64,000 bases of DNA, from IMG/VR virus record IMGVR_UViG_3300005617_000177. One strand, 5' to 3'. The notes under the pieces were generated by a model. It was not told the origin of the DNA. It did no database searches and was given only the letters and a program-made list of their open reading frames with translations. Positions 12,527 through 57,480 of the stretch are shown here, one piece after another. The DNA is from an uncultured virus (IMG/VR IMGVR_UViG_3300005617_000177) (lineage: Duplodnaviria > Heunggongvirae > Uroviricota > Caudoviricetes). The translations under genes and the position numbers were made by a program. Every line of letters begins with the position of its first letter. The stretch's first letter is position 1.

Positions 12527-12529
12527 GCT

Positions 12530-33608: not shown

Positions 33609-33609
33609 T

Positions 33610-35985: not shown

Positions 35986-36746
35986 AAGTCATTCTCTCTG
36001 GCTATGAAGGCAGCAAATCAATTCTTAAGGCCAGTTCGTTTCTGGTCGCTCAGTATCTCAACATCGATGGATTCGAATTCTATTGGATGAACTATGGAGA
36101 TCCGGTCCCTCTCTACACAGGTCTGTACGTCAAGTTGGCCGATAAGCAACTCCACGTAAAGTCCTGGGCTGCGGATATACGAAACTACTTGTCATCTGTT
36201 CAGGATGACTTGATCATATTCGCTTTGGATGATTACCTGATTGCTGGCAGTCTCAATTGGAATCAATATTTGAAGCTAATCCATAAGCTGAACACCAATC
36301 CAGCCATTGTGAGTGCCCGGCTCTGTATCAGCGATTTCTACAAATCATCTGAGATCGACCGGATCGAATCTGATTCATTTGGCGAGATCATTCAGTTGAG
36401 CGCCAGTGCAGAATATTCTGTTACTACACAGTACTGCATTTGGAAAAGACATGCTCTTATGGATGTCCTTTCTGAAGTAGAGACTCCATGGGAATTCGAA
36501 ACCCAAGGATCCAACTATTTGAATTCCACTGGTATGCAGGTGATCGGTTACAGACCGAACCCGCCTCTGATCTACAACTGTTCGAGCTCTCTTTCGACTC
36601 GCTGGCCAGGAATTAACATAAGTGGCAGTAGTCTTGAAGACATAGAGTATCTTGTCTCGGTAGGAGACTTGAATCGAAGCGACCTTACAAACCGAGGACA
36701 TGCCGTTCAATGGGGTAGCACCCATTCAATAGCGGAGGCCATGTGA
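35982..36746 (+). CDS. Putative glycosyltransferase (GT-A-like)
   Basis: IIFALDDY, Q..IW, TPWEFE pattern; cluster context. Confidence 0.55.
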   Translation: MKVILSGYEGSKSILKASSFLVAQYLNIDGFEFYWMNYGDPVPLYTGLYVKLADKQLHVKSWAADIRNYLSSVQDDLIIFALDDYLIAGSLNWNQYLKLIHKLNTNPAIVSARLCISDFYKSSEIDRIESDSFGEIIQLSASAEYSVTTQYCIWKRHALMDVLSEVETPWEFETQGSNYLNSTGMQVIGYRPNPPLIYNCSSSLSTRWPGINISGSSLEDIEYLVSVGDLNRSDLTNRGHAVQWGSTHSIAEAM

Positions 36747-37606: not shown

Positions 37607-38199
37607 ACATCACGGCTTGTTTAATAACTTACAAACGCCCCAATAACATTGGGCCGATCGTATCTCATTTACTCCAACAACCATTCATCGATACGGTGGT
37701 TGTTCGAGACAACGCCAAGAACAATTCCAACGTCTACGGGCGATATGAACTAGCCAGACAAGCACCTTCTGATATTGTTTATGTCCAGGATGATGACTGC
37801 ATTGTGCACGATATTGAACAGATCTATCAAACTTTTGTGAATGATCCAGAGCGCATCGCTTTTGGATTAGCTCCTACCCACCATCCGGTTTGGCATTTAT
37901 ATACATTTCCTGAGACTCAACTTGCTATGGTTGGATGGGGCGCATTCTTTAAGCGAGACTGGATTGATCTAGCCTTCAATAGGTACTTTCAACATCATGA
38001 GCTCGACGCATTTTCCCGGCGAGAGGCTGACAGGATTTTTTCCCTGATGCTTGCGCGTCAACACAATTCGATTCTGTCCTCCAATCTCGAGCATCTTCCT
38101 GGTTGTTCTGATGGAGATGCAATGTCCAAAGAAGCCGATCATTTTAATTCGCGCGCCCGGGCAATCGAACAATGTCTTGCCATTCTAAGGAATCAATGA
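37603..38199 (+). CDS. Glycosyltransferase (GT-A/GT2-like)
   Basis: ITYKRP, VYVQDDD. Confidence 0.7.
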   Translation: MNITACLITYKRPNNIGPIVSHLLQQPFIDTVVVRDNAKNNSNVYGRYELARQAPSDIVYVQDDDCIVHDIEQIYQTFVNDPERIAFGLAPTHHPVWHLYTFPETQLAMVGWGAFFKRDWIDLAFNRYFQHHELDAFSRREADRIFSLMLARQHNSILSSNLEHLPGCSDGDAMSKEADHFNSRARAIEQCLAILRNQ

Positions 38200-38912
38200 G
38201 AGTCGATCTTCTATATTTGGCAAAGAACCGGCTAGAATTCACGAAAGAATCATTCTCAGCTTTACTGTCCAACACCGATTGGGATCTCGTTAAGTCTTTC
38301 TATGTCTACGATGATGGCTCAACGGATGGAACCGCTGAATACCTGACCGATACTATCATTGCCAACCGTGAGATCCTTCCAGACAAAACGGTTCTCAGAC
38401 AGACGGACTTCGGCTCTCCTGTCAGAATTACCAATGATTTTGTGGTTCAGGTTGATTCGCCTCTGTTAGCCAAGATCGACAATGATATAGTTGTTCCGGA
38501 GAAGTGGTTGACTCGATGCGTTCAAGTGATGGATGGCAGTCCAGAGCTTCAATGTTTGGGCATCGAGGCGTTCTATGAAATCGAACCAGATGTAACAGTA
38601 TGTCGTGGATGGATACGAGCCATTCACACTGGCGGCATTGGTCTCTTTCGAAGAGCGCCGTTTGAAGAAGTGTTGCCTATTGCATACGGAACCTATTTCG
38701 GATTCGGCAACTGGCAGCAACGCGGAGACGGACTCATGTGCGGCTGGATTAAACCGTCTCTTCCTGTATTCTTATTAGACCGGCTCCCTTTTGAGCCCTT
38801 CCGATCTTTGACTCTTTCGTACATAGAGAAGGGCTGGCAGCGAGATTGGGGGCCTTACGATTCATCACAACAAGATCTTTGGACCTGGAGATTCCCGAAC
38901 GAAAGGGGGTGA
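38196..38912 (+). CDS. Glycosyltransferase family 2
   Basis: YDDGSTDGT, KIDND. Confidence 0.8.
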   Translation: MRVDLLYLAKNRLEFTKESFSALLSNTDWDLVKSFYVYDDGSTDGTAEYLTDTIIANREILPDKTVLRQTDFGSPVRITNDFVVQVDSPLLAKIDNDIVVPEKWLTRCVQVMDGSPELQCLGIEAFYEIEPDVTVCRGWIRAIHTGGIGLFRRAPFEEVLPIAYGTYFGFGNWQQRGDGLMCGWIKPSLPVFLLDRLPFEPFRSLTLSYIEKGWQRDWGPYDSSQQDLWTWRFPNERG

Positions 38913-39187
38913 TGAAAGTGGACAACCGACAGCCAGAGTTGGGCGAAGTTGTGAAATGGCACGATCCAACTGGTGTGGAGCATACGGCCCTCGTAACAGC
39001 CGTGTGGACTCCAACCTGTATCAATCTTGTCGTCGTCAGTCATGACGAAAAGAAGAAGGATGAATACGGTCGCCAGATCGAGCGCTACACTTCACAGCAG
39101 CACAAGTCTGTCATGAATGTGCATGGCTTCTATTGGCGGTTTATCGATGAAGAACCGAACGGCTACACCGCTCCGCTTGCGAACTAA
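38912..39187 (+). CDS. Hypothetical phage protein
   Basis: 91 aa, GGGGG SD, ALVTAVW..CINLVV. Confidence 0.6.
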   Translation: MKVDNRQPELGEVVKWHDPTGVEHTALVTAVWTPTCINLVVVSHDEKKKDEYGRQIERYTSQQHKSVMNVHGFYWRFIDEEPNGYTAPLAN

Positions 39188-39244
39188 CCTTTAACCCGGC
39201 GCCGGAACCGACCAGGAACCACAAAGACGCCGGCCGTAGATACT

Positions 39245-39571
39245 ATGACAAGTTTACAGGAATTGTTGGATAGGTCTGAGCCATTTTGCTTGAATTGTGG
39301 TAGTCCACTTCAATGTAGTTGTGGATTTCAACTCACAGAAGAAGTATCTTGGTATAAGACAACTGCCGCATTGTATCATCGGAGAAGCCCTCTGTATTTC
39401 GAGAGGCTAGTTGCTGAGGCTGAGTCTCAATTAGCTAAGGCTAGGGCTCAGTTACCTAGACTTCCCGATTCCGAACCACTTATTGGCAATCGAAAAATCA
39501 GATTCGCACCAGAAGAGATGGAGCCGACTTATGAGAGAACGAACTGTTTGCCAGATGCGAATCAAGAATGA
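39245..39571 (+). CDS. Cys-rich hypothetical protein
   Basis: CLNCG..CSC. Confidence 0.5.
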   Translation: MTSLQELLDRSEPFCLNCGSPLQCSCGFQLTEEVSWYKTTAALYHRRSPLYFERLVAEAESQLAKARAQLPRLPDSEPLIGNRKIRFAPEEMEPTYERTNCLPDANQE

Positions 39572-40391
39572 AGAACGGTGGATTCGCCGATCTTTAGAGC
39601 GCACTTGGAAGGTTTGCCAAACAGTGGTTATCTTCGATGATGGCTCGGAAGATAAAACACAGGAAGAAGCGTATGCAAGCTTTACTGTGAACCATACATT
39701 GCATACACGTTCTGGTGTTCGCATTTTCCAAGGCGAGTCAGAACGCGGTCCTTGCGAACTTCATTATATCCATTCACCTTTTACTCAAGCTGTTCGTCCT
39801 AAAGAACGTGTCAATGAGAACCGGGACAAGAACATCTTGAATTCGTACTGCAAAAGCACGATCGACTATGATTATGTTCTATGTTTAGATGGCGACGAGA
39901 TGCTCAGTAATTCCGCTGTCCGGCAATTCCCTGACGTCTGGAACTTCCTCGACAACCATTGCGACATCGTTGTTCTAACGTTTGTTTATCTGTGGGATGC
40001 AGAGAATCTAAGACGAGTCGACGGAATATACGGCCCACCAAGCGGTATTTCTCAGCTTCGATTCCCTCGAGTCTATACAATCAAGAGGCTTGAGGAATAT
40101 GATCTGTTCAATCTCAGCTTTGCTTGGGGAGGCGCAAGGGGTGGTGGCTTCCACTGTGGTTCTATTCCCACCCAAAACTTCACGACTTCATTGGGTGGCG
40201 CGTCCAAAACCATTGATGCTCCAGTAGTTCACTTCGGATACATCGACAATCCTCTCCGGCAAAGAAAGTATGTCTGGTACAACACTATAGATCCCGGTAA
40301 TGAACACGAAGGCTGTTACAGGCATATCATTGGCGAGGCAGATCAGTGGGCACCGGGACCAGTCGAACTTCAGCCCTGGGAAGATTCATGA
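39531..40391 (+). CDS. Glycosyltransferase family 2
   Basis: KNEERWI, DDGSEDKT, LDGDE, VVHFGY. Confidence 0.8.
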   Translation: MRERTVCQMRIKNEERWIRRSLERTWKVCQTVVIFDDGSEDKTQEEAYASFTVNHTLHTRSGVRIFQGESERGPCELHYIHSPFTQAVRPKERVNENRDKNILNSYCKSTIDYDYVLCLDGDEMLSNSAVRQFPDVWNFLDNHCDIVVLTFVYLWDAENLRRVDGIYGPPSGISQLRFPRVYTIKRLEEYDLFNLSFAWGGARGGGFHCGSIPTQNFTTSLGGASKTIDAPVVHFGYIDNPLRQRKYVWYNTIDPGNEHEGCYRHIIGEADQWAPGPVELQPWEDS

Positions 40392-41851
40392 TTTCTATAG
40401 TCATTCCTTCTTGCACAAACGAGCACCTTGCACGATTGTTGGAATCCATTGAGGTTAGCTCCCCTGGTCTTGGAACTTCCAAGATTCAACAAGTGATGGC
40501 CTCGCCAAATTATCGCGCAGTGTTCCCCTGGGTGTATAACGCGGTGCCTTCTATTGTCATAGGAGATAACGGTCTTTCAGATTCTTTTCGTGAAGAATAT
40601 GCTCCTAAAGGAATCTCTTTTGTCACTGTACATGAACCTTTCATCTTTGCTCGCGCGATAAATTCTTGCGTAGCAACCCTTCCTCCAGAACACGATATTC
40701 TTATTCTCAATGATGATGCGATCATAACCAGTCCTAATTTCGAAGAAGATCTTACCCGTCTCTTGTCCAAGCCGCGGACTCGGCGCTTCGGAATTGTCAG
40801 TCTTAAATTGAGCGGAGGCGTGGCCGGCAACAGGGAACAAATGGAAGATGTCGCAGCCGATGACATTGTATTGACTCGACGCACAGTTTGTTTCATTGCC
40901 GTAGTGATTCGCCGTGAAGTATGGAATCAAATAGGCGGCATGGATGAATCGTTTGTTGGGTATGGATTTGAGGACACAGATTATTGTCGCCGTGCCGTTA
41001 ATGCTGGTTGGCTCTTAGGTATTACAGGAGCGGCCTCTATCGAGCATGGGTTTGGAACTTCCGTGATGAGTAGCACGTTCAGACGAAAACATGGAACGGA
41101 TGGGCATTCTCACCTGTATATTCAAAACCATAACATCTTCAAAGATAAATGGGGCGAAGGGCCTCAGCTAGGAGATTACGAAACTATGCCTATAGTATGT
41201 GACGATAGCGAAGAACCTCTTAGCTCGGGGACTTCGTTTGGTCTCAAAGAACTAAGAAGCCGAGAGCAGTTTACAGCCCAAGCTCCTATGCCAGACAAGA
41301 CCCTCGGTCTTGAATCTGATCTCGAGGCTGATGCTGAATTGCTATGGGCGATTACAAGCCTTGTCAAACCTCAGACGCTTATTGAACTCGGCACTCGTGA
41401 GGGTGTGAGTACTCGTATTCTTGTACTGGCCGCACAACAAGCAAGAGAAGAAGCGAAGATCATAACTATTGATCCTGATTCAACCTGTGCAGACTTTATT
41501 CAAGATCTGGATTGTGAGTTCTATTCAATGAAAGCTGAAGACTTCCTTGCCGGCCTATCTCCGGAAAAGCGTGAAGCTCTCAAGGCGGATATGTTGTTCA
41601 TCGACACCGACCCGCACGACTACCAGCAGACTCTCATGTGGTTGAACACCTGGGTGTCAACCATGCTTCGTCCTGGTGGCTGCGCGCTGTTTCATGATGT
41701 GGTCAGCAATCGGCCGGAGATACAGGTACGCGCGGCCGTTGAGTCTTGGGTGCACGATCACACTGATTGGGAATGGATTGTGTTCCCGGTGCCGGAGAAG
41801 GAATACAAGTGGGCCCAAGGAGGTCTAGGACTTCTCTGGGCCCCAGAATAG
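40388..41851 (+). CDS. GT2 glycosyltransferase fused to class I SAM methyltransferase (Methyltransf_24-like)
   Basis: ISIVIP, ILNDD, GGMDESFVGYGFEDTDY; then IELGTREGVS, LFIDTDPHDY, LRPGG..FHD. Confidence 0.85.
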   Translation: MISIVIPSCTNEHLARLLESIEVSSPGLGTSKIQQVMASPNYRAVFPWVYNAVPSIVIGDNGLSDSFREEYAPKGISFVTVHEPFIFARAINSCVATLPPEHDILILNDDAIITSPNFEEDLTRLLSKPRTRRFGIVSLKLSGGVAGNREQMEDVAADDIVLTRRTVCFIAVVIRREVWNQIGGMDESFVGYGFEDTDYCRRAVNAGWLLGITGAASIEHGFGTSVMSSTFRRKHGTDGHSHLYIQNHNIFKDKWGEGPQLGDYETMPIVCDDSEEPLSSGTSFGLKELRSREQFTAQAPMPDKTLGLESDLEADAELLWAITSLVKPQTLIELGTREGVSTRILVLAAQQAREEAKIITIDPDSTCADFIQDLDCEFYSMKAEDFLAGLSPEKREALKADMLFIDTDPHDYQQTLMWLNTWVSTMLRPGGCALFHDVVSNRPEIQVRAAVESWVHDHTDWEWIVFPVPEKEYKWAQGGLGLLWAPE

Positions 41852-42788: not shown

Positions 42789-42819
42789 CTGTCTCTCCTT
42801 TCAATCTAAGATCATACAA

Positions 42820-42892
42820 TACGTCGTTCGGGATTCGAACCCGAATCCAGGGTTTTAGAGACCCCGTGCTCTAACCATTGAGCTAACGACGC
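42820..42892 (-). tRNA. Amber suppressor tRNA (anticodon CUA), CCA not encoded
   Basis: Cloverleaf GCGTCGT-TA-GCTC-AATGGTTA-GAGC-A-CGGGGT-CTCTAAA-ACCCTG-GAT-TCGGG-TTCGAAT-CCCGA-ACGACGT-A; anticodon at 42856-42858. Confidence 0.9.
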
Positions 42893-42897
42893 ACAAC

Positions 42898-42991: not shown

Positions 42992-43297
42992 TTACTTCTT
43001 GGCCGTTGCTGCTTTCTCGAGGACGCCGAGAATCTCTTCCTCTCGCAAGATCAGGAAGTCCGTGCCTTCGATCTTGATGTCGGCGCCGCCGTATTTGGCG
43101 AACAGCACGCGATCTCCTACCTTGACGTCGACCGGGACAACCACGCCCGATTCTGTCAAGAAGCCTTTGCCCACAGCTACAACTTCGCCTTGCTGTGGTT
43201 TCTCTTTTGCGTTGTCGGGAATATGAATCAGCCCGACCTGATCTGCCTGCTCAATCCTCCGGATCACTATCCGGTTTCCCAAGGGACGAATGTTCAT
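42992..43297 (-). CDS. groES: Co-chaperonin GroES
   Basis: IRPLGNRIVI, IPDNAKEKPQQGEVVAVG, VKVGDRVLFAKYGG, LILREEEILGV. Confidence 0.95.
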   Translation of the reverse strand: MNIRPLGNRIVIRRIEQADQVGLIHIPDNAKEKPQQGEVVAVGKGFLTESGVVVPVDVKVGDRVLFAKYGGADIKIEGTDFLILREEEILGVLEKAATAKK

Positions 43298-43875: not shown

Positions 43876-44231
43876 TTCTTTCCCTCAGTTAATTCATTGT
43901 AACGTTGCATAAGTTGATCGTGCAGCGACACCAGAGAAGGATGATCGGTGGATTGCAATCCTCGAATGGCATTAGCTAAAGATCCAGGATCGTCTCTATT
44001 ACAAGATAATGCCTGATCTCTTCTGATGCGATCATGCAAACTCATTGGCTCTCCATCTACAATGATTCCTTCTTTAGGCAGGGCTGCTTCGTCTGCAAGA
44101 ATATCATAGATCTTTTCTTTTGTGAGAAGATAAGCCTGTGCTGCACCCATCGCTGACTCCGCGCTTTCAGGATTTTTTCGAATCCGTTCTATTTGTTCAT
44201 CGAGCCAGAGCATGATTTTTTCGGGCATCAT
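43872..44231 (-). CDS. Hypothetical protein
   Basis: 119 aa, ATGA overlaps. Confidence 0.55.
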   Translation of the reverse strand: MMPEKIMLWLDEQIERIRKNPESAESAMGAAQAYLLTKEKIYDILADEAALPKEGIIVDGEPMSLHDRIRRDQALSCNRDDPGSLANAIRGLQSTDHPSLVSLHDQLMQRYNELTEGKK

Positions 44232-44899
44232 ATCAATTCACTCCAGTGAGAGACTTTGTATTTCTGACACAGATACGTGTTCATAAATTCCAAATCGTCA
44301 TGACCTTTGGCATCGGGAATGGAACGAACTGTCCCTCCCATTTCATGTTCAATTACCAGGTCTGGCACAACCATAAAACTCCAGCCGCGCTCTCTGGCGG
44401 CGAAGCAGAATTGAATATCCACGCCATAGCCTTTTAGATTTTCATCGAACCCGCCTACTTCCTTCCAGGCTTCTATGCTGACCAAGGGAGCGACCCAATC
44501 AATATGGCGCTCATACCGCGGTGCTCCGAAGCTCTGCTTCATTGATTGATGTGGTGTCGGAGTGACGGCCGGCGACACCGCCGCGAGCTTCGGAGAGGAT
44601 TTCAATGTAACCGCCAGCTTATTCAGCATGTCGAAACTCAGCCCTTTGACGTCGTTGTTCAACATGAATGCAGCCTTATACGCTTTGAGTCTTGGATGCT
44701 GCATTGCTTTGTTCACCGATTTGAGATACCCGACATTGGAAGGCCACCGTAGAATTTCAATGCCGGGTTCCTCAAATGGAATATCACTGCCGTCATCAAC
44801 AACAATGATATTGTTGCGAGGCTGATCTCGTAATTGTTGAAGCACACTACGAGTCAGATCCTCTCTCTGGTAATGAAAAATCAACGTCGCGATCCGCAT
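44228..44899 (-). CDS. Glycosyltransferase family 2
   Basis: VVDDGSD, MLNNDV, VGGFDENLKGYGVDIQF. Confidence 0.85.
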   Translation of the reverse strand: MRIATLIFHYQREDLTRSVLQQLRDQPRNNIIVVDDGSDIPFEEPGIEILRWPSNVGYLKSVNKAMQHPRLKAYKAAFMLNNDVKGLSFDMLNKLAVTLKSSPKLAAVSPAVTPTPHQSMKQSFGAPRYERHIDWVAPLVSIEAWKEVGGFDENLKGYGVDIQFCFAARERGWSFMVVPDLVIEHEMGGTVRSIPDAKGHDDLEFMNTYLCQKYKVSHWSELI

Positions 44900-45170
44900 A
44901 ATCCTTCACCGAATCTAGGAACTGATCCCGGTGCCGAAGATCGGCGAGAGTCGGCACAGAGAATATTTTATCCGAATGACAGAGCAAGCAACGTGGGCGC
45001 CGGCATCCTCGAGCCTTTGTCTTTCGAAACCGTCCTGCTTGAAAATCGCAGATACAATCTACTGGACGTTGCGGCCAGCCGTGAACTTGCTTTAAGTGAA
45101 TGCGATGCTCTCGCTGTGTTCGATTCCGTTCCTGGTGATACCTCTTCATAGCTACCAACTTTCCGGACAT
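44847..45170 (-). CDS. Small basic Cys-rich phage protein
   Basis: GRFRKTKARGCRRPRCLLCH; start uncertain. Confidence 0.5.
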   Translation of the reverse strand: MSGKLVAMKRYHQERNRTQREHRIHLKQVHGWPQRPVDCICDFQAGRFRKTKARGCRRPRCLLCHSDKIFSVPTLADLRHRDQFLDSVKDYADRDVDFSLPERGSDS

Positions 45171-45227
45171 GACTCAGGGAAGCCATGCCCTTCGTAATGA
45201 TAAAACTATGAAGAGTTCTTAGATTAT

Positions 45228-45653
45228 TCATGCTGTCCTTGCTGCGATTAACTCCATTACAGCTTCTTTCCTGTCTGGAGTTGTTAGAGCCTTGCGTTTG
45301 TCCCCGATGATGACAATGACATCCATGACTTGTACGATCTTGTTCAGAAGCTCTCCCATCTCTCCTTCTTGAAAAGCATTGGGTCTGGCAGGATCGACAT
45401 TGGCTATCAATCGGGTTTGATCCAGAGTCGAGCTCATGACGACATGGCTCTTGTCCGGTCTCAATTCTTCGGGCCATGCTTCATCGAACAACCACAGACA
45501 TTCAAACTCCTGACAGGTCGGAGGTCTCTCACTATAGATGTTACAGCCTTTCCCTATGTCGCAATGTTGGCACCACTGTGTAGCGGGCTTGGACAGTTCT
45601 GTCACGCCCATGACTTTGCAGCACATCGTACAGCTTCCGCATTGTCTTGGCAT
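45228..45653 (-). CDS. YkgJ-like CxxCxxCC Zn/Fe-chelating protein
   Basis: CGSCTMCC...CQHC..GCNIYSERPPTCQEFEC. Confidence 0.8.
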   Translation of the reverse strand: MPRQCGSCTMCCKVMGVTELSKPATQWCQHCDIGKGCNIYSERPPTCQEFECLWLFDEAWPEELRPDKSHVVMSSTLDQTRLIANVDPARPNAFQEGEMGELLNKIVQVMDVIVIIGDKRKALTTPDRKEAVMELIAARTA

Positions 45654-45654
45654 A

Positions 45655-45957
45655 TCAGTCCTCTACTACAACCCAATTGGTTTCCTTGAAATCATGAAGA
45701 TAGGGATTCCAAAAATCTTCTCGTGCGCAGGATATTGATAGGCCACGCTCAGATTGTGTTCTGACTTCAGGCTTAACAAGAAGGATGCGTCTTGCATAAT
45801 GAGCCGGTCCCTCTCCAACCAGTCGATGCGGTTCTGCTACAAGATATGAAGTCCAGTTGTCTCGCCACGATCGAGGATCATCATCTGGATAAACTACGCG
45901 AACTTTCTTTCCCTCTTCCAATTGCTTGAGTGCCCACTCCCACGTTCCTTCTATCAT
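45655..45957 (-). CDS. DUF2829/Tad2-like protein
   Basis: WALKQLEEGKKVR...W...WNPYLHDFKETNWVVV resembles the family N- and C-terminal motifs. Confidence 0.5.
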   Translation of the reverse strand: MIEGTWEWALKQLEEGKKVRVVYPDDDPRSWRDNWTSYLVAEPHRLVGEGPAHYARRILLVKPEVRTQSERGLSISCAREDFWNPYLHDFKETNWVVVED

Positions 45958-46706
45958 TTTGGTATTTCTCCATCTTGTGAGGCGCCTTCGCCGGTCAACG
46001 GATTGCCTGGGTCATCGAGATGTTCGGCCGTAATGCTGTGATCGATCCACCAGCGGCCGAAGCCATTCAGATATGCATCAGAAGCATAAGCCGGATCTTC
46101 AGAAAGTGCGGTCTCCGGATTCTCTCTTGAAGCTCCGAATCTGAAGGCCAGAGTGCTGAATAGATCGCGGCGGATCAGACAGTAACCGCATGTGCCGTGT
46201 CCAACTTCCCATACTCCTGGTCTGTCCGGTACTTCAAACTGCGGCCAGAATTCATAATCGACATGCGAGTGCGCTCCGCGCCCGGGGACTAATCCACCAC
46301 ATAGAGGCCGGTCCAGATCGAGCAGCCTCTTCAAACCATCCGGCTTGATAATGACATCGGCATCTACGAACAAGATATGGGATGCGTCATTGTGGAGCGC
46401 AAAGGCTCTGGCTTCATTGCGCGCACGGACGATACCGATTAATCGCGCCTGATCTTGATCGTACTTAGGCTTAGGGATCCAGGGCGAAGCCATGTGGCAC
46501 ACATCTAATGTGTGTGGGATAGGACAATCATAGTCCAGATAATTCAATAGAGGCCGAAACAAAGAATGGATGTTGGGCAATCCCACATTCGTTTCCAAAT
46601 GAACGTAGTAGTGCAGATCTGGATAATCAGTCAGGGCCGCAGCCGGGATTGCTTGTAACTGAGAGTAGGCTTTTCGATCACACAGAATGGTCGCCAGAAC
46701 AATCAT
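45954..46706 (-). CDS. Glycosyltransferase (GT-A fold)
   Basis: ARNEAR, ILFVDADV, GYCLIRRDLF, SEDPAY, H at the end of the fold. Confidence 0.7.
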   Translation of the reverse strand: MIVLATILCDRKAYSQLQAIPAAALTDYPDLHYYVHLETNVGLPNIHSLFRPLLNYLDYDCPIPHTLDVCHMASPWIPKPKYDQDQARLIGIVRARNEARAFALHNDASHILFVDADVIIKPDGLKRLLDLDRPLCGGLVPGRGAHSHVDYEFWPQFEVPDRPGVWEVGHGTCGYCLIRRDLFSTLAFRFGASRENPETALSEDPAYASDAYLNGFGRWWIDHSITAEHLDDPGNPLTGEGASQDGEIPK

Positions 46707-46879
46707 TCGCCCTCCAGTAATTTGTGAATCGCTTCGGCATCTTCTCTGTCAATGACTATGTGGGTTTTATCATAGATAAGCTCGTTTATCCTGATGCCGT
46801 CCCATTCTTCAGCAAGAGTATCTTCATCTTTGTCTATTTGTTCTTTCAGGGTATCTGCTAATTCCTGTCGCGTTTTCAT
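46703..46879 (-). CDS. Small acidic hypothetical protein (58 aa)
   Basis: MKTRQELADTLKEQIDK...LLEGE; fills the gap with ATGA overlaps at both ends. Confidence 0.55.
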   Translation of the reverse strand: MKTRQELADTLKEQIDKDEDTLAEEWDGIRINELIYDKTHIVIDREDAEAIHKLLEGE

Positions 46880-47529
46880 CGAATCCTCTTTTTCAGTAAT
46901 AGATTCAAGTCGTAGGCTCTCAGATATGTCTTGAACAACTCCCAGGCTTCGGGCAATTTTCCAAAGTACCGATGCTCGAAATCATCATCGTTCTTGCTGA
47001 ACCGGCAGATGTGGTAGCCTCCAGTCAGTAGTTCTCCTGGACGATTCTCTTCCCACAACGCTTTGTATGCGGCGACCTGGATTGCGTAATCCATATAGAT
47101 GCCGTTGCTGGATTTCCAGTCGAGCAAGCAGAGCAAACCATCGAGCAATCCGATCGCGTCTAGAGTCCCGCCGAATCTGTATCTCTCCGACACCAGCGAG
47201 ACTTCGGTATGCATAATCTTGAGGCGGCTATGACGTTCCCAGGTTCGATATGCTTCGAATGCCGATCTCCCTTTCTCTTCGACTTCTGGAGGAACATTCA
47301 AACTGCCCCACTCTCCTAACGGCTCATTCTTGATGTGGCGTTCGACAAGAGTATGAGCCACAGTACCGGAGTTCGCCGCGCGATCTCTTGTCTCGCGGTA
47401 GTCGAGGCCGGCTTTGCCCTGCTTCCAAGCCCAATTGATCAGGGCGCCGGACTCTTTGAATCGAGATAGAATAGTCGTCACGCTTGGGACGCCAGTTCCA
47501 TCTCTTAATTTGTATTCGTGCAAGGCCAT
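46876..47529 (-). CDS. PD-(D/E)XK exonuclease
   Basis: PSVTTIL, GTVAH, E..L, GGTLD, LDWKS, QVAAY. Confidence 0.82.
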   Translation of the reverse strand: MALHEYKLRDGTGVPSVTTILSRFKESGALINWAWKQGKAGLDYRETRDRAANSGTVAHTLVERHIKNEPLGEWGSLNVPPEVEEKGRSAFEAYRTWERHSRLKIMHTEVSLVSERYRFGGTLDAIGLLDGLLCLLDWKSSNGIYMDYAIQVAAYKALWEENRPGELLTGGYHICRFSKNDDDFEHRYFGKLPEAWELFKTYLRAYDLNLLLKKRIR

Positions 47530-47815: not shown

Positions 47816-49687
47816 CTAACCTCCCCAACTATCGGCTATTTTTGTTTCTGCTATGACAGGAACTTTCCAGATGTATTCCTTCATGCAGTTTACCATTTCT
47901 TTTTCTAGAATCACCGCCACTTCTGGCGCTGCTGCTTCATCACACTCCACTACGATTTCATCAAACGGGGACAATACAATCCTTGCCCAATAAGGCTTAT
48001 TCCAAAAGATTCTAGCCAGACGTCCTAATGCTTTCTTCGCTCCGCTCACTTCGAGCAATGCTGCTACAAAGTTGACGGCCTCTCCCTTTGGAACTGCCCC
48101 TTCCTTGAAGAGGGTAGCCCGACCACCGCGGACTTGGACTTTTCCTTCTCGTTCGGCTTTCTTGTGCTGAAGATTGTGATAGATCTTGACTCCACGGTAT
48201 CTCTTAAAATATCTCTTGATGAACAAATCACATTCTTCATAGGTCTTGTTGATACCGAGACCTTTCAGAAAGGTTTCTCGCAAGCGTTCTGGTCCGCATT
48301 CAAACGCCACAGCGAAGTTCGTTGTCTTGGCCAGGTATCTCTCTGCTTTACTGACTTGTGCTTCTGGCTTTCCAAGAATGACTTCTGCGGTCTGGCGATG
48401 AAGATCAAGACCATTGAGATAAGCCTTGAGCATGACAGGATCGCCTGATTCCTGTGCGATAGCTCTAAGCTGAAGCTGTGAATAGTCGCTTATGACAAAC
48501 TTGCGGCCGGGACCGGGCTTAAAGCAACTGCGGAAATCTCTCTTACTCCGCATGATCGAGTCTTCTTTTGGAACGCCGGGGCCGTAGCTGTCTGGCCTCT
48601 CAACGTTCAAAAGAATCGGCCGACTGGAAGCATAGCGATGTTGTGGGCTTCCTAATTGCCTGAAGTCTGAATGAATCCGTCCGGTAATTGAATCAATCGA
48701 CTCCCCAAATGCCTTAGCATGATCTGAGGCCGTCTTGAGCGATGCTCGATCAACGAATAGATCTACGAGTTCTGGATCCCGATCTCGGTATTTAAGCAGC
48801 ACTCCACCGGATGTAGTGTTCTTCTCGTATTGATCCTTGAGTTCAACACCCCATCGTTTCTTGAAGGCTTCCCATACCTGAACGTGACTTCCAAGGTTGA
48901 TTGCTTCGGCAGGCCCATCCGAGAATAGCGCCGGCTGCATATTGGAAAACTCAGGATATTTTCCAATCTTGACTGTTGCATCATGCCGCTTCTGATCTAT
49001 CTCGTCTTGTAATTCTTTGAGCAAGACTGGATCAGCATAAATCCCCTCGTATCCCATCAAGGCTGTTGCAAGGATACAAGAGTTCTCGGTCATGAACGCT
49101 TCATCCATGCCGTGGAACAGAATTCGTTCGACTAGAACATCAGCCAGTTCGTATAGCCACTCTACGTCTTGCGCTGCATACTCTAACTGTTCTTCAGTCA
49201 GAACTGGAGCATCCCAATTACTGACTTGCTGTTCTTTGGAGATCTTTATATTGCATTCGCGTTCAAGACAAGTTTGAAGAGTGAAGTCTCCCTTCTTAAT
49301 AGTCAGGGCGCCTTCATACTCTCTGAGTAGAAGGGCGGCAAGAAACAGATCGAGAGGATAGGATATGTAGACGCCAAAGTTGTGAATGACGAAGGTGGTA
49401 TCAAAGTCAGCGTTGAAGCACAGCTTCGCAATGTCGTAATTCATCAGAACGGACTTGAGCGGTCCGAAGTTCTGAATCTTAAAACAATCAATCAGGAAGG
49501 TGGTGCCGAGATCCTCGACGGCTATTTGCACTAAGCGCAACTTAGACCGCCGAGGATCTAACCCGGTTGTTTCTGTGTCGAAGCCGACAACCAGAGTCTT
49601 CTGGCTGATCTGCTTCTGCACGATCTGATCACAGCACTCGGCGAGCGCTGCATCAGATTCAATTAATTTCCGGGTTAGCTTAGGCAC
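47816..49687 (-). CDS. polA: Family A DNA polymerase (3'-5' exonuclease + polymerase), divergent
   Basis: Exo I DTETTG, Exo II NADFD, Exo III YAAQD; motif A DYSQLQLR, motif B RYLAKTTNF, motif C PFDE. Confidence 0.88.
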   Translation of the reverse strand: MPKLTRKLIESDAALAECCDQIVQKQISQKTLVVGFDTETTGLDPRRSKLRLVQIAVEDLGTTFLIDCFKIQNFGPLKSVLMNYDIAKLCFNADFDTTFVIHNFGVYISYPLDLFLAALLLREYEGALTIKKGDFTLQTCLERECNIKISKEQQVSNWDAPVLTEEQLEYAAQDVEWLYELADVLVERILFHGMDEAFMTENSCILATALMGYEGIYADPVLLKELQDEIDQKRHDATVKIGKYPEFSNMQPALFSDGPAEAINLGSHVQVWEAFKKRWGVELKDQYEKNTTSGGVLLKYRDRDPELVDLFVDRASLKTASDHAKAFGESIDSITGRIHSDFRQLGSPQHRYASSRPILLNVERPDSYGPGVPKEDSIMRSKRDFRSCFKPGPGRKFVISDYSQLQLRAIAQESGDPVMLKAYLNGLDLHRQTAEVILGKPEAQVSKAERYLAKTTNFAVAFECGPERLRETFLKGLGINKTYEECDLFIKRYFKRYRGVKIYHNLQHKKAEREGKVQVRGGRATLFKEGAVPKGEAVNFVAALLEVSGAKKALGRLARIFWNKPYWARIVLSPFDEIVVECDEAAAPEVAVILEKEMVNCMKEYIWKVPVIAETKIADSWGG

Positions 49688-50687: not shown

Positions 50688-50716
50688 ATCTTATAGTAAG
50701 TCAGATCCGGAATCAA
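50688..50716 (-). promoter_or_regulatory. Sigma70-like promoter TTGATT-N17-TAAGAT
   Basis: 17-nt spacer; upstream of the ParB-like/PolA genes; followed by ACTCGTAAAACA. Confidence 0.55.
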
Positions 50717-51833
50717 TCCTTTCTTTCCATTTAGAGCCCTCTATCTTTTCGATCCATTCCCAACCGTCAGTATTCAATATGGCATCATCGAATCCATTGC
50801 CTAAAGTCGGGTTCCATTGCAGCACCCACACAGTTACATTCCGTGATAGTAGCTGCGTGACGAGAGAGACTAAAGCCTGTCTGACCCCTTCATTGGTTCG
50901 CCAGTCCGCGTCGAAGGCCAAAGTAATGCTGGCGGCGCCCAATGCCAAACCCAATACTTCTCCGTGGCAGGTGCCGACTCCTGGCATTCCGACTATCGTT
51001 TCCGGTCCTTCCCATAGAGACGCTACAAGATCTGATTTCAACCGTCCTTCGACTACCAGATATTCAAATGTTGTGAATAGGTCACTTCGCATCCAGCGAT
51101 TAGCAAAGTGTAGATGCGGTGTCGCTTTGGTTCCGGTTCTCCGTCTGACATAGTTTATGCCCTCTTCCGAGACGGCTGGTTCCGGAGCCGAAGTCAACCA
51201 ACAATATTTCAATACTTTAGGCTGTTCTTCAAGTGGTTCGTTGTGGCTTTTTCGCACTCGAGCCTTAAAAGCCTGAGTGATTGCGTCGTCTGTATTGATA
51301 ACACAGCCGCTTATAGTTCCATCGGCGTTCCGAACTGGTAACAAGATCCCGCCAGGACCGCTCAGGTGCCACTCTCTGCGGCCGTCAGCGGAATGGGTGT
51401 ACCAGAAACCCGGCACTCCTTCTAAGCTCTCCTGAGCAGCCAGGGCTTCAGCAATCATATCCCTATCGCTGATTTTGGCTGGCAGGGTTGTATATTTGGC
51501 GTCCTTTATGAAATCACCCTCGAATCCGCGCGAGTACAAATAGACTCGATGGCTGTTAGAAAGCACGCCAGTCAATAGTCTGTAATATGCAGAATGCGTG
51601 ATTACGGGGGTAGCGGCGTAGACTGGAGCGATTGCCGCTCCGGGCTGATCATTCAACAAATGGATGTAGCCGGTGCCGAATCCCTGAATTGTTCGGCTTC
51701 CCCGGCTACCAGAGCTCTCGCGAATGCAGGTGACCCATATTGTTCCTGGCTCTTTGGCGCTTTCAATCCAAGTGCAGCCACTAAGACCGGAGCAGATCGG
51801 GCATGGTTTATTCTTCCGTGCTCTGAACCACAT
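50691..51833 (-). CDS. Primase-like protein (Zn finger + DUF3854/TOPRIM)
   Basis: CPICSGLSGC, YLYSRG, GILLPVR, VVEGRLK, GMPGV, LAFDAD, GFDD. Confidence 0.75.
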   Translation of the reverse strand: MWFRARKNKPCPICSGLSGCTWIESAKEPGTIWVTCIRESSGSRGSRTIQGFGTGYIHLLNDQPGAAIAPVYAATPVITHSAYYRLLTGVLSNSHRVYLYSRGFEGDFIKDAKYTTLPAKISDRDMIAEALAAQESLEGVPGFWYTHSADGRREWHLSGPGGILLPVRNADGTISGCVINTDDAITQAFKARVRKSHNEPLEEQPKVLKYCWLTSAPEPAVSEEGINYVRRRTGTKATPHLHFANRWMRSDLFTTFEYLVVEGRLKSDLVASLWEGPETIVGMPGVGTCHGEVLGLALGAASITLAFDADWRTNEGVRQALVSLVTQLLSRNVTVWVLQWNPTLGNGFDDAILNTDGWEWIEKIEGSKWKERIDSGSDLL

Positions 51834-52988: not shown

Positions 52989-54578
52989 CTATGAAAAGAA
53001 GGAATCATCTTCTGGTGGTGCGGCTTGTTGTGGTTGTTGTTCGCCATTAGGTCTAGCCTCTTCCAACGTCATGTAAGTCCCGTTGAATAGAAGAGGCACA
53101 TACCATCCCGCTCTGGTATTACGAGATCCTTCCACAGTCCAGCGACCGCGGCGTTGTGGGTTTAGCAATCTTACGAATGGATCCCGACCTGCGGCTTCGC
53201 AGTCAGGACAGATATTATTCACCGGACGTGAATCCCATCGTTCGACCTTGAAGGTCTTCAAAGAATTGCCGACCATGACTTCTCGGGCGATCTTTTGTTC
53301 CGGACAATCGCATTCGAATCGTTCGGGTTCCATACTAATCGTGGTTTTATACGTTGCATCTTTATTTGGCTGTTTGGATCCATAAGCGAATTGATTCGAT
53401 GCTGTTCCATAGATGCGTTGGAATCTGGCGCCTTCGTCGTTGTGTTGCACGACAACGATCATGCCGACATCGAGATAGTTGTATCTCAGACAAATATTAG
53501 CTAATTGCTTGCTGAAGTTCGAAAGTATCTCTTCTTGTTTTCCTTCGCCCTCAACCTTCTGAAAATAATCAATCAAGAATAGACGAACCCCGAATCGGCG
53601 AATGTACCGTTCGATAGTCGGAATAATCTCCCGCGCTGTATTGAGTTCATCGCAAATGTATAGAGGATCTTTGGCTATAGAGTCCCATACTTCCAAGGCC
53701 ATTCTTCGTTCGTATGGCGTCATACGATCGCGCGCACCAATGAGTTTGTTGAAAGGCACAGTCTCGCCAGAGTTCATGGAAATCCGTCGCATATTAATTA
53801 GATCGCGCGACATTTCCATACTGATGATCGCGGCGGGGTATCCGAATCTTGCTGATGCATTAACTAGACTCAAACCCAACTGACTTTTGCATTGTTTGTC
53901 GACGGCACCGATGACGATGTAATCGTTTCCCTTAATGCCGCCAGTTTCTTCATCGAACTGTGAAAATCCTGTAGGAATTCCTATGCGTTCATTGGAACTA
54001 AGGCGATTGATTCGATCTACCACTCTCTCATAGTCATCCATACCGCTGCGCCCTGGCATGTCTGACTGCATAGTCTCAGAACTGGAAACCGTTTCTGCTA
54101 GCTCGAGCAGAACATTCGCACTGGTCGTTGTGCCTTTGGCGAGATCTCCTACAAGCTTCTGCAACTTCTCATTCAGTACTCGCCGATTGGTTCGTTCCTT
54201 AACGATGATGGCTATCTCTGTAGCCGGCGCCGCGAAGACTTTATCGTCGGTTTCTCTAAAAGTGATCAGACCTTCCTTGACCTGAAAAGTCTTTGTGATC
54301 TTATAGAGTCCCTTTTCCCCTCCGATCTTTTCCAGAGCGTTTGTCGCACCAGGGCTGGACGTTCGCTCCAGTCTGTCACGCAGGGACATATAGGTAATAG
54401 TTTGTCCCTCTAAGAGTAGCGTTTCGGCCGCTGCAACGATGAGCCGCAAGCCTCCGTCATAGGACACGAAATCCTTGGAAGTGATGCGTTCCAGTATCAG
54501 GCGAGCGTTCTCTTCCCCTGACAGTAAGAATGCTATGGAAGCCAGTTCGGCTAATTCGTCTTGGATTTCGAAGTCCAT
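52989..54578 (-). CDS. dnaB: DnaB-like replicative helicase, divergent
   Basis: GIPTGFSQFDEETGG, Walker A variant GAVDKQCKS, SMEMS, LIDYFQ, VVQHN. Confidence 0.8.
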   Translation of the reverse strand: MDFEIQDELAELASIAFLLSGEENARLILERITSKDFVSYDGGLRLIVAAAETLLLEGQTITYMSLRDRLERTSSPGATNALEKIGGEKGLYKITKTFQVKEGLITFRETDDKVFAAPATEIAIIVKERTNRRVLNEKLQKLVGDLAKGTTTSANVLLELAETVSSSETMQSDMPGRSGMDDYERVVDRINRLSSNERIGIPTGFSQFDEETGGIKGNDYIVIGAVDKQCKSQLGLSLVNASARFGYPAAIISMEMSRDLINMRRISMNSGETVPFNKLIGARDRMTPYERRMALEVWDSIAKDPLYICDELNTAREIIPTIERYIRRFGVRLFLIDYFQKVEGEGKQEEILSNFSKQLANICLRYNYLDVGMIVVVQHNDEGARFQRIYGTASNQFAYGSKQPNKDATYKTTISMEPERFECDCPEQKIAREVMVGNSLKTFKVERWDSRPVNNICPDCEAAGRDPFVRLLNPQRRGRWTVEGSRNTRAGWYVPLLFNGTYMTLEEARPNGEQQPQQAAPPEDDSFFS

Positions 54579-56286: not shown

Positions 56287-57480
56287 TCAAAAAGGAATTT
56301 CTTCGTCGTCTGCCGCACTCACCGTTGCCGCCATTGCTGCTATTGGCGCAGGTGGTTGCCGAGATTCAGATCCCCGGGTTGTTCGAGATTGGGCTGCGCT
56401 GGCTGGAGCCGCTTGCTGCTTTAGATTATCGGCTTCCAGTTTCAGGTGGTCGATCAATATGCTCGCCCCTGCTTGCGTCAGGTTAAAGATCGTTGAATCA
56501 TCGGTGCCGCCTTTGAGTTGCCCGGCCCCGCGCAACACGGCCAATTCAACATCGGGATCCTGATCGACCTTCTCGGCCAACTCTTTGATGCGTTCCATCT
56601 GTGCATCGGTTGCGAGTTTATCAGCATCTTCTGTGAAGTGTCCGGCTTCGGCGGCTTTGCTGCTGGACAATTCCTTGACCATGCCGCCATACGTATCGAT
56701 CCATTCTACGATCGTTTTGATTCGTTCGCTCCCGTCGTTCTTCTTTGGGATGTAGAGCTTCTTCAACTCATCAAGGTTGTCCGCAAACATCTTGAGAGTC
56801 GATACGCCCGTTCGACCGTCCTTTGTTGTTCGCAGGCCGCGTTCTTCCAGATCTTGAACAGGACACGCCCACGAAACGTCAGGAGATTTCCCAACCAGCA
56901 TCGGTCTATGCTTCACCGGGAGCAGAAATTGATTATAGGAAAGCGACTTTGCAGTCGGATTCTTCCTCTTGTGTTCGGCGGTCGCAGCGCCGACAACATA
57001 GCGCAGAAAGTTCCGAACGTGAGCACACATCCGATATCCATTCGACTTGCCGCTGTACTTGATCCTGAATGGCTTCGATGGCGACCAGAACTGCCAGATA
57101 CCGGCTATGAGATAGAACGCAACCTTTCCCGATTGCTCGCTTGTCCACGCGACCGGACCCCGATCATCGTGGTCGAAGGCGACCACGGTCAGATGGTAGT
57201 TCGGTAGAATCCATCCTTCTTGTCGCTTGAATCCCCCCGGCGAGTCTTCATCCAGATGATCTATGACGAGTCTCTTTGCGTACTTCTCGTCAATTATCGC
57301 ATCATCGGGAACCTGACTGTCCGGAATGAAAAGTCCTCCGTTTTCGCCTTTGGAGTCCTTGTCGTTGTGAATGTAAATGATCGGCAGTTCCAGTCTGGCT
57401 TCTACAGCCGCTTTGTCGTGCCGACCTTCGTCTCCGAAGTAGCTATCAACGCCAGAGGCGTCATCTCTAGGTTCGTCCAT
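56287..57480 (-). CDS. Putative ssDNA-binding/annealing protein
   Basis: SSB-type acidic tip DDEEIPF; ATDAQ...LTQAGASILID helical motif of annealing proteins. Confidence 0.5.
   Translation of the reverse strand: MDEPRDDASGVDSYFGDEGRHDKAAVEARLELPIIYIHNDKDSKGENGGLFIPDSQVPDDAIIDEKYAKRLVIDHLDEDSPGGFKRQEGWILPNYHLTVVAFDHDDRGPVAWTSEQSGKVAFYLIAGIWQFWSPSKPFRIKYSGKSNGYRMCAHVRNFLRYVVGAATAEHKRKNPTAKSLSYNQFLLPVKHRPMLVGKSPDVSWACPVQDLEERGLRTTKDGRTGVSTLKMFADNLDELKKLYIPKKNDGSERIKTIVEWIDTYGGMVKELSSSKAAEAGHFTEDADKLATDAQMERIKELAEKVDQDPDVELAVLRGAGQLKGGTDDSTIFNLTQAGASILIDHLKLEADNLKQQAAPASAAQSRTTRGSESRQPPAPIAAMAATVSAADDEEIPF

What the first reader, a model, noticed from the sequence alone, without database searches (positions are those of the whole stretch)
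47816..49687. PolA keeps its catalytic aspartates but has rewired substrate-checking residues
Seen, by eye against E. coli Pol I numbering: DYSQLQLR (steric gate E710 to Q), NFAVAFE (Y766 to F, G767 to E), PFDE (H881 to F), QHRYASSRPILLN (N675 to I, Q677 to L) and AVNFVAAL (Q849 to A). D705, R668, R754, K758, F762, D882 and all three exonuclease motifs are intact. Known: these positions govern sugar selection and minor-groove/base-pair checking. Inference: altered specificity (modified nucleotides, rNTPs, low fidelity or non-templated synthesis) rather than decay. No base-modification pathway is visible in the window.
Basis: partly seen in the sequence, partly recalled or inferred. Interest (0 to 1): 0.7.

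Follow-up and report, generated by a model that had tools for sequence, protein, structure and literature searches.

The report
Phage DNA polymerase with rebuilt active-site floor
This uncultured phage's only visible DNA polymerase is a real, well-conserved Pol I relative in which most of the "universal" residues that check the incoming nucleotide and the DNA minor groove were replaced together, most likely as a compensated redesign and not as decay or proof of unusual DNA.

Summary
The 623-aa ORF at 47816-49687 (-) is a family A polymerase with an intact 3'-5' exonuclease.

These are not private changes. Two relatives at 44-47% identity share them. The trio sits inside an 18-row clade (support 100) that always has Q710, never has Q849, mostly has Y881 and QHR, and carries the loop.

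Q710 never occurs alone. All 23 Q710 sequences have a new Glu at 852, against 0 of 133 E710 sequences. The Q710/F766/E852 triad arose at least three times. The gate carboxylate therefore looks relocated, not lost.

The model is confident (pLDDT 94.6) and closest to Aquifex and apicoplast polymerases. It is not DpoZ. No PurZ, thymidylate-synthase-like or other known base-modification gene lies in the window, which is not the whole genome.

Best reading: a replicative, proofreading polymerase with a compensated redesign of its pocket floor. Altered substrate or DNA chemistry is not excluded, and nothing here supports it.

The parts
47816..49687 (-). PolA gene, 623 aa, GTG start, TAG stop: 3'-5' exonuclease plus family A polymerase
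49124..49663 (-). 3'-5' exonuclease domain (residues 9-188). Exo I D37/E39, Exo II D96 and Exo III Y170/D174 are intact
47822..48907 (-). polymerase domain (residues 261-622)
48635..48643 (-). QHR in place of the TGR motif (T666Q, G667H, R668 kept)
   Evidence: G667H is found in 15 of 18 clade rows
48605..48619 (-). PILLN in place of PNLQ(N/Q) (N675I, Q677L). N675I is specific to the trio
48536..48604 (-). loop between motif 2 and motif A, 17 residues longer than in canonical relatives. It has a conserved RP-x-(S/T)-(Y/F)-G-P start and is modelled as an ordered coil (block pLDDT 90 and 88)
48464..48487 (-). motif A DYSQLQLR: D401 (=D705) kept, Q406 (=E710)
48296..48340 (-). motif B / O helix: R450, K454 and F458 kept; A459 (=G763), F462 (=Y766), E463 (=G767)
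48041..48073 (-). motif 6 / helix Q: N539 kept, A543 (=Q849), L544 (=G850), E546 (=A852, the new carboxylate coupled to Q406)
47954..47971 (-). motif C: F575 (=H881), with D576 and E577 kept
52989..54578 (-). DnaB-type replicative helicase (context)
50691..51833 (-). DUF3854 protein with an N-terminal Cys cluster, primase-like (context). The same family lies near the PolA in L179
46876..47529 (-). PD-(D/E)XK exonuclease (context)

Best explanation
The gene encodes the phage's replicative, proofreading, DNA-templated DNA polymerase. It belongs to a rare, deep phage branch next to the Aquificae-like/apicoplast group of family A polymerases. In this branch the floor of the active site was rebuilt by coupled substitutions, in three layers. 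(1) The Glu710-Tyr766 pair under the incoming sugar became Gln-Phe, and a new Glu appeared at position 852, three residues after position 849 in motif 6. That spacing would put it on the active-site face of the helix if, as recalled, this stretch is helical. The carboxylate would thus be supplied from another wall of the same pocket. (2) At the base of an 18-row clade, the minor-groove reader Gln849 was lost, His881 became Tyr, TGR became QHR, and the loop after motif 2 grew by 15-28 residues. The new Gln/His beside Arg668 and the new loop are the likely replacement DNA contacts. (3) In the window's trio, the remaining polar primer-strand contacts Asn675 and Gln677 and, in two of three, residue 881 became Ile, Leu and Phe. 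Shown here: the substitutions, their conservation, their coupling, the nesting of the clades, an intact confident fold, and the replication context. Inferred: that E852 does the job of E710, that QHR and the loop replace the lost contacts, and that the enzyme still copies ordinary DNA from ordinary dNTPs with acceptable fidelity.
For: Substitutions and intact catalytic and exonuclease residues.

Shared by P0003 and P0004 at 44-47% identity.

Clade structure: the trio, a 6-row group and an 18-row clade each have SH-aLRT 100 on a 69-row tree. Loss of Q849 needs a single change on that tree.

Coupling: all 23 Q710 sequences have E852 and 22 of 23 have F766, while 0 of 133 E710 sequences have E852. 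In a second set, 10 of 10 Q710 rows have E852 against 0 of 110 others.

Recurrence: Q710 and E852 each need 6 changes on the best tree. In all 3 independent pairs on well-supported branches they change together.

Single E710Q in Klenow is a slow mutator, whereas Y766F is wild-type-like (PMC3715850, passages). A natural Q710 should therefore need compensation.

Purifying selection in the clade: L203 against L179 gives pN 0.157 and pS 0.825.

Fold: mean pLDDT 94.6, pTM 0.92, insert blocks 90 and 88. Best folds are Aquifex Pol I 8jrb and apicoplast apPol, TM 0.82.

Context: DnaB, DUF3854, PD-(D/E)XK nuclease and no other polymerase family in the gene calls scanned. L179 and L203 have the same kind of module.

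No PurZ, thymidylate-synthase-like or deazaguanine genes were found, and no unannotated gap is longer than 1.3 kb.
Against: No biochemistry exists for any member.

The sign test on independent origins cannot reach significance (3 pairs, p 0.25).

The trio's extra changes (N675I, Q677L, G850L/M, H881F) have no identified compensating partner.

The window is only part of a longer sequence: there is no terminal overlap and no genome is held. Modification genes could therefore lie outside it.

A large sugar and glycosyltransferase cluster and a DUF7768 gene are unexplained.

The genomic context of the two closest relatives could not be fetched.
Confidence: 0.6

Rival explanations
1. The rebuilt pocket and the hydrophobic minor-groove surface are an adaptation to non-canonical DNA or nucleotides, for example a replaced base, a minor-groove-modified base or a sugar-modified nucleotide, made by genes outside the window or by the unexplained sugar and DUF7768 genes.
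For: Nearly all side chains recalled as polar minor-groove or primer contacts, except R668, are non-polar in the trio. Y766F is the one substitution shared by both DpoZ clades (PMC8599892 section 13; PMC10201439). The window holds at least six GT2-like genes, a nucleotide-sugar pathway and a 2-deoxyribosyltransferase-like domain. The genome is incomplete. An earlier unchecked note (e1-5999627) reports a rewired pocket of three coupled residues in a phage that encodes 2-aminoadenine synthesis.
Against: DpoZ models score 36.8 and 25.9 bits against cut-offs of 500 and 350. No PurZ, thymidylate-synthase-like hydroxymethylase or deazaguanine gene was found in 64 kb. Clade relatives L179 and L203 show no modification gene in common with the window. 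The triad arose repeatedly among otherwise canonical enzymes. Y766F is common in this branch (34 of 117). The known sugar-decorated phage bases I recall are major-groove, post-replicative marks that need no such polymerase change (recalled, not from a call).
Confidence: 0.2
2. The enzyme is a working but relaxed polymerase. Loss of minor-groove checking gives low fidelity or easy mismatch and lesion extension, partly rescued by the exonuclease.
For: Single E710Q in Klenow is a mutator (PMC3715850). Q849, N675, Q677 and H881 are recalled as contacts that sense base-pair geometry.
Against: It appears to be the only polymerase of a phage of at least 64 kb. The changes have been conserved over deep divergence. 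Q710 is always accompanied by E852. Non-polar replacements in motif C raised selectivity in Taq (PMC4011760).
Confidence: 0.15
3. The gene is a decaying or non-catalytic remnant, or the substitutions are alignment artefacts.
For: Many residues described as invariant are changed at once.
Against: The same result came from HMMER, MAFFT --auto and MAFFT L-INS-i. The catalytic Asp, Asp/Glu, Arg and Lys residues and all exonuclease residues are intact. The frame is open and the fold confident. Relatives conserve the variant residues.
Confidence: 0.03

Closest known systems
Aquificae-like 'Hot Spring 1' family A polymerases (cluster #8 of Czernecki et al. 2023, PMC10201439): Aquifex Pol I (8jrb) and the Plasmodium apicoplast polymerase apPOL (5dku, 7sxq, 9qsc)
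   Same: Two-domain architecture of 3'-5' exonuclease plus polymerase with no 5' nuclease. These are the best sequence matches among solved structures (E 1e-49 and 2e-44) and the best fold matches (TM 0.82). The nearest canonical homologues are cyanobacterial or phage proteins of this kind. F762 is kept.
   Different: Those enzymes keep TGR, N675, Q677, E710, Y766 (or F), Q849 and H881. The window's enzyme changes all of them, adds E852, and carries a 17-residue longer loop. It scores 357 bits against the 640-bit cut-off of NCBIfam NF011539.
DpoZ, the 2-aminoadenine-specific phage PolAs (phiVC8-like and Wayne-like; PMC8599892, PMC10201439)
   Same: Phage PolA with an exonuclease domain. Phe replaces Tyr766, the one substitution shared by both DpoZ clades.
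   Different: DpoZ profile scores are far below cut-off. PMC8599892 describes the DpoZ motif C His-Asp dyad as conserved. No PurZ lies in the window. The tree places the window's clade with Hot-Spring-like enzymes, although no DpoZ sequence was included in that tree.
Klenow fragment mutants E710Q, E710A and Y766F (PMC3715850)
   Same: The same two positions carry the same residues (Gln and Phe).
   Different: In Klenow, E710Q alone binds the correct dNTP weakly, closes poorly and incorporates slowly. In nature Q710 is found only together with E852.
Gln710/Phe766/Glu852 triad polymerases noted earlier in this scan (e1-6311434, AI note)
   Same: The same three-residue swap. I re-derived it independently on my own sequence sets.
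   Different: The window's clade goes further. It also loses Q849, H881, Q677 and TGR and gains the loop. The trio additionally loses N675.
divPolA1 and divPolA2 (Yutin et al. 2024, PMC11348598)
   Same: Divergent phage family A polymerases.
   Different: Those are second polymerases with a truncated or missing thumb and no active exonuclease (passages). This one is full-size, has an intact exonuclease, and is the only polymerase seen.

Membership tests
Family A DNA polymerase (Pfam PF00476) | Profile match above the gathering score | tested here: met
   160 bits against a cut-off of 34.3, E 1.1e-46, residues 261-622
Family A DNA polymerase (Pfam PF00476) | Catalytic carboxylates D705 and D882 (with E883), plus O-helix R754 and K758 | tested here: met
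   D401, D576/E577, R450 and K454
Family A DNA polymerase (Pfam PF00476) | The further highly conserved motif residues of all 19 published clusters: TGR, motif A Glu (A2), motif B Tyr (B4), motif 6 Gln, motif C His | tested here: not met
   QHR, Q406, F462, A543 and F575. For the paper I read the text and the Figure 3 legend only; the logo itself is not held
DNA_pol_A_exo1 3'-5' exonuclease (PF01612) | Profile match and the Exo I, II and III acidic residues and Tyr | tested here: met
   99 bits against a cut-off of 23.6; D37, E39, D96, Y170 and D174
NCBIfam NF011539 (PRK14975.1-3, bifunctional 3'-5' exonuclease/DNA polymerase, equivalog) | Score above the curated cut-off | tested here: not met
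   357.2 bits against a cut-off of 640
Hot Spring 1 / Aquificae-like PolA (cluster #8) | Groups with cluster #8 representatives and not with canonical Pol I | tested here: inconclusive
   Best PDB sequence and fold hits are cluster #8 members. On the tree the clade lies within a 65-row group separated from four Pol I rows at support 100. No named cluster #8 or #10 sequences were in the tree and no CLANS-type clustering was done
DpoZ | Score above the cut-off of NF038380 or NF038381 | tested here: not met
   36.8 bits against 500 and 25.9 bits against 350
DpoZ | Co-occurrence with PurZ (2-aminoadenine synthesis) | tested here: not met
   No adenylosuccinate-synthetase-like hit in any gene call of the window and no unannotated gap over 1.3 kb. 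The window is not the whole genome
Q710/F766/E852 triad polymerases (informal group) | Gln at 710, Phe at 766 and Glu at 852 together | tested here: met
   Q406, F462 and E546
divPolA1 / divPolA2 | Compact second polymerase with a truncated or missing thumb and an inactive or absent exonuclease | tested here: not met
   Full-length model aligned over about 620-640 columns to Aquifex and apicoplast polymerases; exonuclease residues intact; paper passages

The most novel reading that the evidence does not exclude
The trio's enzyme is a natural replicase that has given up nearly all side-chain hydrogen bonding to the DNA minor groove, keeping only Arg668, and now checks the new base pair through a hydrophobic, shape-only surface plus a new loop. 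It does so because its phage's DNA carries a minor-groove or sugar-edge modification that the canonical readers would clash with. Such an enzyme would also be a ready-made scaffold for copying unnatural or modified base pairs.
Probability: 0.15. Interest if true: 0.85.

Novelty: new variant of a known kind. Interest (0 to 1): 0.55.

Why it matters
Polymerase papers describe Glu710-Tyr766, Gln849 and the motif C His-Asp dyad as invariant or universal in family A polymerases (PMC3715850, PMC8599892 and PMC10201439, passages read). Here a clade of evidently functional phage replicases replaces all of them in a coupled, stepwise way, and one step (Gln/Phe/Glu852) evolved repeatedly. That gives enzymologists a natural experiment on how the nucleotide pocket and minor-groove checking can be built differently, and a short, testable list of compensating residues. 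If the substrate range does differ, it also offers a new scaffold for modified-nucleotide or XNA work. If the enzyme turns out to be ordinary in activity, the lesson is that these positions should not be read as markers of function in metagenomic PolA surveys.

Tried and rejected
1. Whole genome: none is held. The window has no terminal overlap, so absence of a gene can be stated for the window only.

2. Relatives in IMG/VR. Two profile scans returned 155 distinct PolA loci. At the 710 position, 152 have Glu, 3 are not covered and none has Gln. The pairwise tblastn read-out at other positions proved unreliable (checked), so I used it only for 710.

3. A clade-specific DNA pattern gave one IMG/VR hit. 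No ORF over 427 aa lies at the match, so I treated it as chance; I did not test it by tblastn.

Only 3 of them encode a PolA (L179, L203 and a 640-bp piece). The JGI contigs of P0124, P0125, P0126 and P0177 were not recovered.

5. A trio-specific pattern gave 0 hits in IMG/VR and 1 chance hit in GTDB genomes (best tblastn E 4.2).

6. Single-protein scans for P0125 and P0124 in IMG/VR found nothing.

7. The contigs of P0003, P0004 and P0123 come from Logan assemblies. The tool that could fetch them is closed, so the context of the closest relatives is unknown.

8. Cluster look-ups gave no organism names for any triad or clade member. I could not tell whether triad enzymes occur in cells with ordinary DNA.

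9. The small ORF after polA and the nuclease show no detectable similarity to their positional counterparts in L203. The 397-aa ORF is not detectably like the L203 clamp.

10. ESM Atlas leads for two unknown ORFs point to a DUF5895/annealing-protein-like fold and a papain-like protease, not to nucleotide metabolism.

11. TerL has no tblastn match among 50,697 phage records, so no cultured relative is known. The best phage PolA hit (PA-SR01, 26% identity) is canonical at every position examined.

12. dN/dS for the trio itself could not be computed because I had no DNA of its relatives.

13. Model coordinates are not exposed, so no residue distances were measured.

14. Literature: five searches found no paper describing a family A clade with Gln at the gate, QHR, or loss of Q849 and H881. 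Subscription journals and the supplements of PMC10201439 were not examined.
Full report
THE GENE. The ORF at 47816-49687 on the minus strand has a GTG start and a TAG stop and encodes 623 aa. It carries a DNA_pol_A_exo1 domain (residues 9-188, 99 bits) and a DNA_pol_A domain (261-622, 160 bits). Among solved structures, the best sequence matches are the Plasmodium apicoplast polymerase (E 1.2e-49) and a 597-aa chain deposited as 'DNA polymerase I', 8jrb (2.2e-44), which the fold search titles Aquifex pyrophilus polymerase 1. Both are far ahead of Taq (5.9e-24) and Klenow (3.7e-16).

CHECKING THE OBSERVATION. I took E. coli K-12 polA from the annotated genome and aligned it with the window's protein and its homologues in three separate alignments.
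- The HMMER alignment to the apicoplast enzyme shows the same changes.
- Among 117 other homologues, the canonical residue is kept in 113 (N675), 114 (Q677), 109 (E710), 113 (Q849) and 110 (H881). Only Y766F is common, at 34 of 117.

RELATIVES.
- A word-indexed search of 5.8 billion proteins found only two close relatives, P0003 (44% identity) and P0004 (43%). All other hits are at 33% or below.
- Both relatives share PILLN, the loop, Q710, A763, F766, A849 and E852. P0003 also has F881, while P0004 keeps His.
- A profile of the trio searched against 1.84 billion representatives gave 41,050 hits. Among the best 150 are intermediate forms such as P0123-P0127, P0130, P0135, P0136, P0147, P0155, P0171, P0177 and P0264.
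- These, together with two metagenome loci (L179 and L203), share Q710, E852 and the enlarged loop (15-28 residues longer than canonical) with a conserved P-R-P-x-(S/T)-(Y/F)-G-P start. Most also share QHR. None has Gln at 849, where they carry V, C, T, S or A. All 15 intermediate forms have Tyr at 881.

TREE. I built a 69-row maximum-likelihood tree (586 columns, quick search, SH-aLRT support only).
- The trio has support 100.
- The trio plus P0123, P0124 and P0125 form a group with support 100.
- All 18 rows with the loop and no Q849 form a clade with support 100.
- Loss of Q849 needs one change on this tree.
- Eleven further sequences have only the Q710/F766/E852 triad and are otherwise canonical. 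They lie in several places among canonical enzymes: 5 changes on the best tree, and at least 3 forced by well-supported branches.
- Several rows have long branches or odd composition, and the tree is not a careful search. Counts of origins are therefore approximate.

THE COUPLING.
- In the 156 aligned representatives, all 23 sequences with Q710 have Glu at 852 and 22 of 23 have F766. None of the 133 sequences with E710 has Glu at 852.
- In the independent set, 10 of 10 Q710 rows have F766 and E852, against 0 of 110 others.
- On the tree, Q710 and E852 each need 6 changes. In the 3 independent pairs on supported branches they change together 3 of 3 times. Three pairs cannot reach significance (p 0.25).
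- An earlier AI note of this scan (e1-6311434) had described the same triad in another genome. I took it as a lead and re-derived it here.
- In Klenow, E710 and Y766 are hydrogen-bonded and form part of the pocket for the nascent pair. E710Q alone binds the correct dNTP about 280-fold more weakly overall (Kd2 230 against 0.83 uM) and incorporates slowly, whereas Y766F behaves like wild type (PMC3715850, passages and Table 1).
- A natural Gln at 710 should therefore need compensation, and the strictly coupled Glu at 852 is the obvious candidate.
- Residue 852 is three residues after 849 and seven after 845 in motif 6. If, as recalled, this stretch is helical, it lies on the face that points into the active site. 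This is an inference from helix periodicity. I could not measure distances because model coordinates are not exposed.

IS IT FUNCTIONAL?
- The AlphaFold2 model, built from a 76-row alignment, has mean pLDDT 94.6 and pTM 0.92. The new loop is modelled as an ordered coil (block means 90 and 88). The only weak block is residues 251-260, at 59.
- Foldseek ranks Aquifex Pol I (8jrb, TM 0.82/0.89) and apicoplast apPol complexes (TM 0.81-0.82) first, with Klenow at 0.78.
- Two clade members with DNA in hand (L203 and L179, 76% amino-acid identity) give pN 0.157 and pS 0.825, so synonymous sites are saturated while dN is 0.18. No DNA of the trio's own relatives was available.
- The gene lies in a minus-strand replication module: a DnaB helicase (52989-54578), a DUF3854 primase-like protein (50691-51833), a PHROG 5931 protein, PolA, and a PD-(D/E)XK nuclease (46876-47529).
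- No other polymerase family was found in the gene calls scanned. L179 and L203 have comparable modules with a beta-clamp, DUF3854, DnaB, a PD-(D/E)XK nuclease, gp30.3, ERF and a ribonucleotide reductase.

IS THERE A LINK TO UNUSUAL DNA?
- NCBIfam's two DpoZ models score 36.8 and 25.9 bits against cut-offs of 500 and 350.
- Y766F, reported as the one substitution shared by both DpoZ clades (PMC8599892 section 13; PMC10201439), is frequent in this branch regardless of context.
- No adenylosuccinate-synthetase-like, thymidylate-synthase-like, deazaguanine or other known base-modification family was hit in any gene call. The largest unannotated gap is 1.3 kb and holds only small ORFs.
- The window does carry a striking sugar cluster: a PIG-L deacetylase, DUF6625, an FkbM methyltransferase, a partial DegT fused to a GNAT, a PseB-like dehydratase and at least six GT2-like genes. 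It also carries a DUF7768 (2-deoxyribosyltransferase-like) domain fused to pentapeptide repeats. Nothing ties these to DNA.
- The window is not a whole genome, and the contigs of the closest relatives could not be fetched. A modification pathway elsewhere cannot be excluded.
[quoted passage not shown] Hydrophobic swaps therefore do not by themselves predict low fidelity.

COMPARISON WITH WHAT IS KNOWN.
- Czernecki et al. 2023 sorted 8,136 PolA sequences into 19 clusters. They state that crucial catalytic residues are strictly conserved in every cluster, that only one cluster changes the Thr of TGR, and that Phe at motif B position 4 is unique to the DpoZ clusters. I read the text, Table 1 and the Figure 3 legend; the logos and supplements were not seen.
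- The present clade departs from that picture at TGR, the motif A Glu, the motif B Tyr, the motif 6 Gln and the motif C His, while staying closest to cluster #8 in sequence and fold.
- It is not divPolA1 or divPolA2, which are thumbless second polymerases without an active exonuclease (PMC11348598).
- Five literature searches found no description of such a clade.
- Other AI notes of this scan report different 'rewired' PolA clades. Rewiring of this pocket may therefore be commoner in phages than the literature suggests, which lowers the surprise of any single case.

VERDICT. The best-supported reading is a working replicative, proofreading polymerase whose pocket floor and minor-groove surface were rebuilt by compensated, stepwise substitutions (confidence about 0.6). 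Adaptation to non-canonical DNA is possible (about 0.2). So is a relaxed-fidelity enzyme (about 0.15). Nothing found here supports either. It is a new variant of a known kind, and its interest lies mainly in enzymology and enzyme engineering.

Noticed in passing
window 42819-42893 (-): A tRNA gene with anticodon CTA, an amber suppressor that ARAGORN labels tRNA-Pyl. TAG is nevertheless an ordinary stop here: 18 of 58 gene calls end in TAG, the polA gene among them.
   Followed up: partly
window 11621-12946 (+) and 31167-32645 (+): Two TAG-ended genes are followed in the same frame by another ORF. Reading through TAG would add 139 aa to the 301-aa structural-region protein. It would add 165 aa to the endolysin-like protein. 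These could be suppressor-dependent long forms.
   Followed up: partly
window 32925-41851 (+), 44228-46706 (-), 62195-63718 (-): A large sugar cluster for a phage: a PIG-L deacetylase, DUF6625, an FkbM methyltransferase, a partial DegT fused to a GNAT, a PseB-like 4,6-dehydratase, a Methyltransf_24 fused to a glycosyltransferase, and at least six GT2-like genes. The target (virion, host surface or DNA) is unknown.
   Followed up: partly
window 30261-31163 (+): A 300-aa protein fusing DUF7768 (PHROG 355 'nucleoside 2-deoxyribosyltransferase', E 4e-19) to Qnr/MfpA-like pentapeptide repeats. It might act on the nucleotide pool or work as a DNA mimic.
   Followed up: partly
window 16703-22402 (+) and 22419-29171 (+): Two adjacent giant ORFs of 1899 and 2250 aa in the structural region, with no Pfam or PHROG hit.
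   Followed up: no
window 2906-5218 (+): The large terminase (PHROG 38, E 2e-27) has no tblastn match at E 1e-5 in 50,697 deposited phage records. The phage therefore has no sequenced cultured relative at this level.
   Followed up: partly
window 42992-43297 (-): A phage-encoded GroES co-chaperonin (Cpn10, E 6e-29) lies next to the suppressor tRNA.
   Followed up: no
window 56287-57480 (-) and 61137-62192 (-): ESM Atlas leads only. The 397-aa ORF resembles DUF5895/Pam3_Gp34 proteins of cyanobacteria and their phages, with weak single-strand-annealing-protein likeness. The 351-aa ORF resembles papain-family (C1) proteases (score 0.94, TM 0.62-0.66).
   Followed up: partly
L203 158-2553 and 17253-18425; L179 1278-2402: Phages carrying the related clade polymerase encode a DNA polymerase III beta-like sliding clamp beside a family A polymerase. 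L203 also has an Amidoligase_2 plus class II glutamine amidotransferase pair.
   Followed up: no
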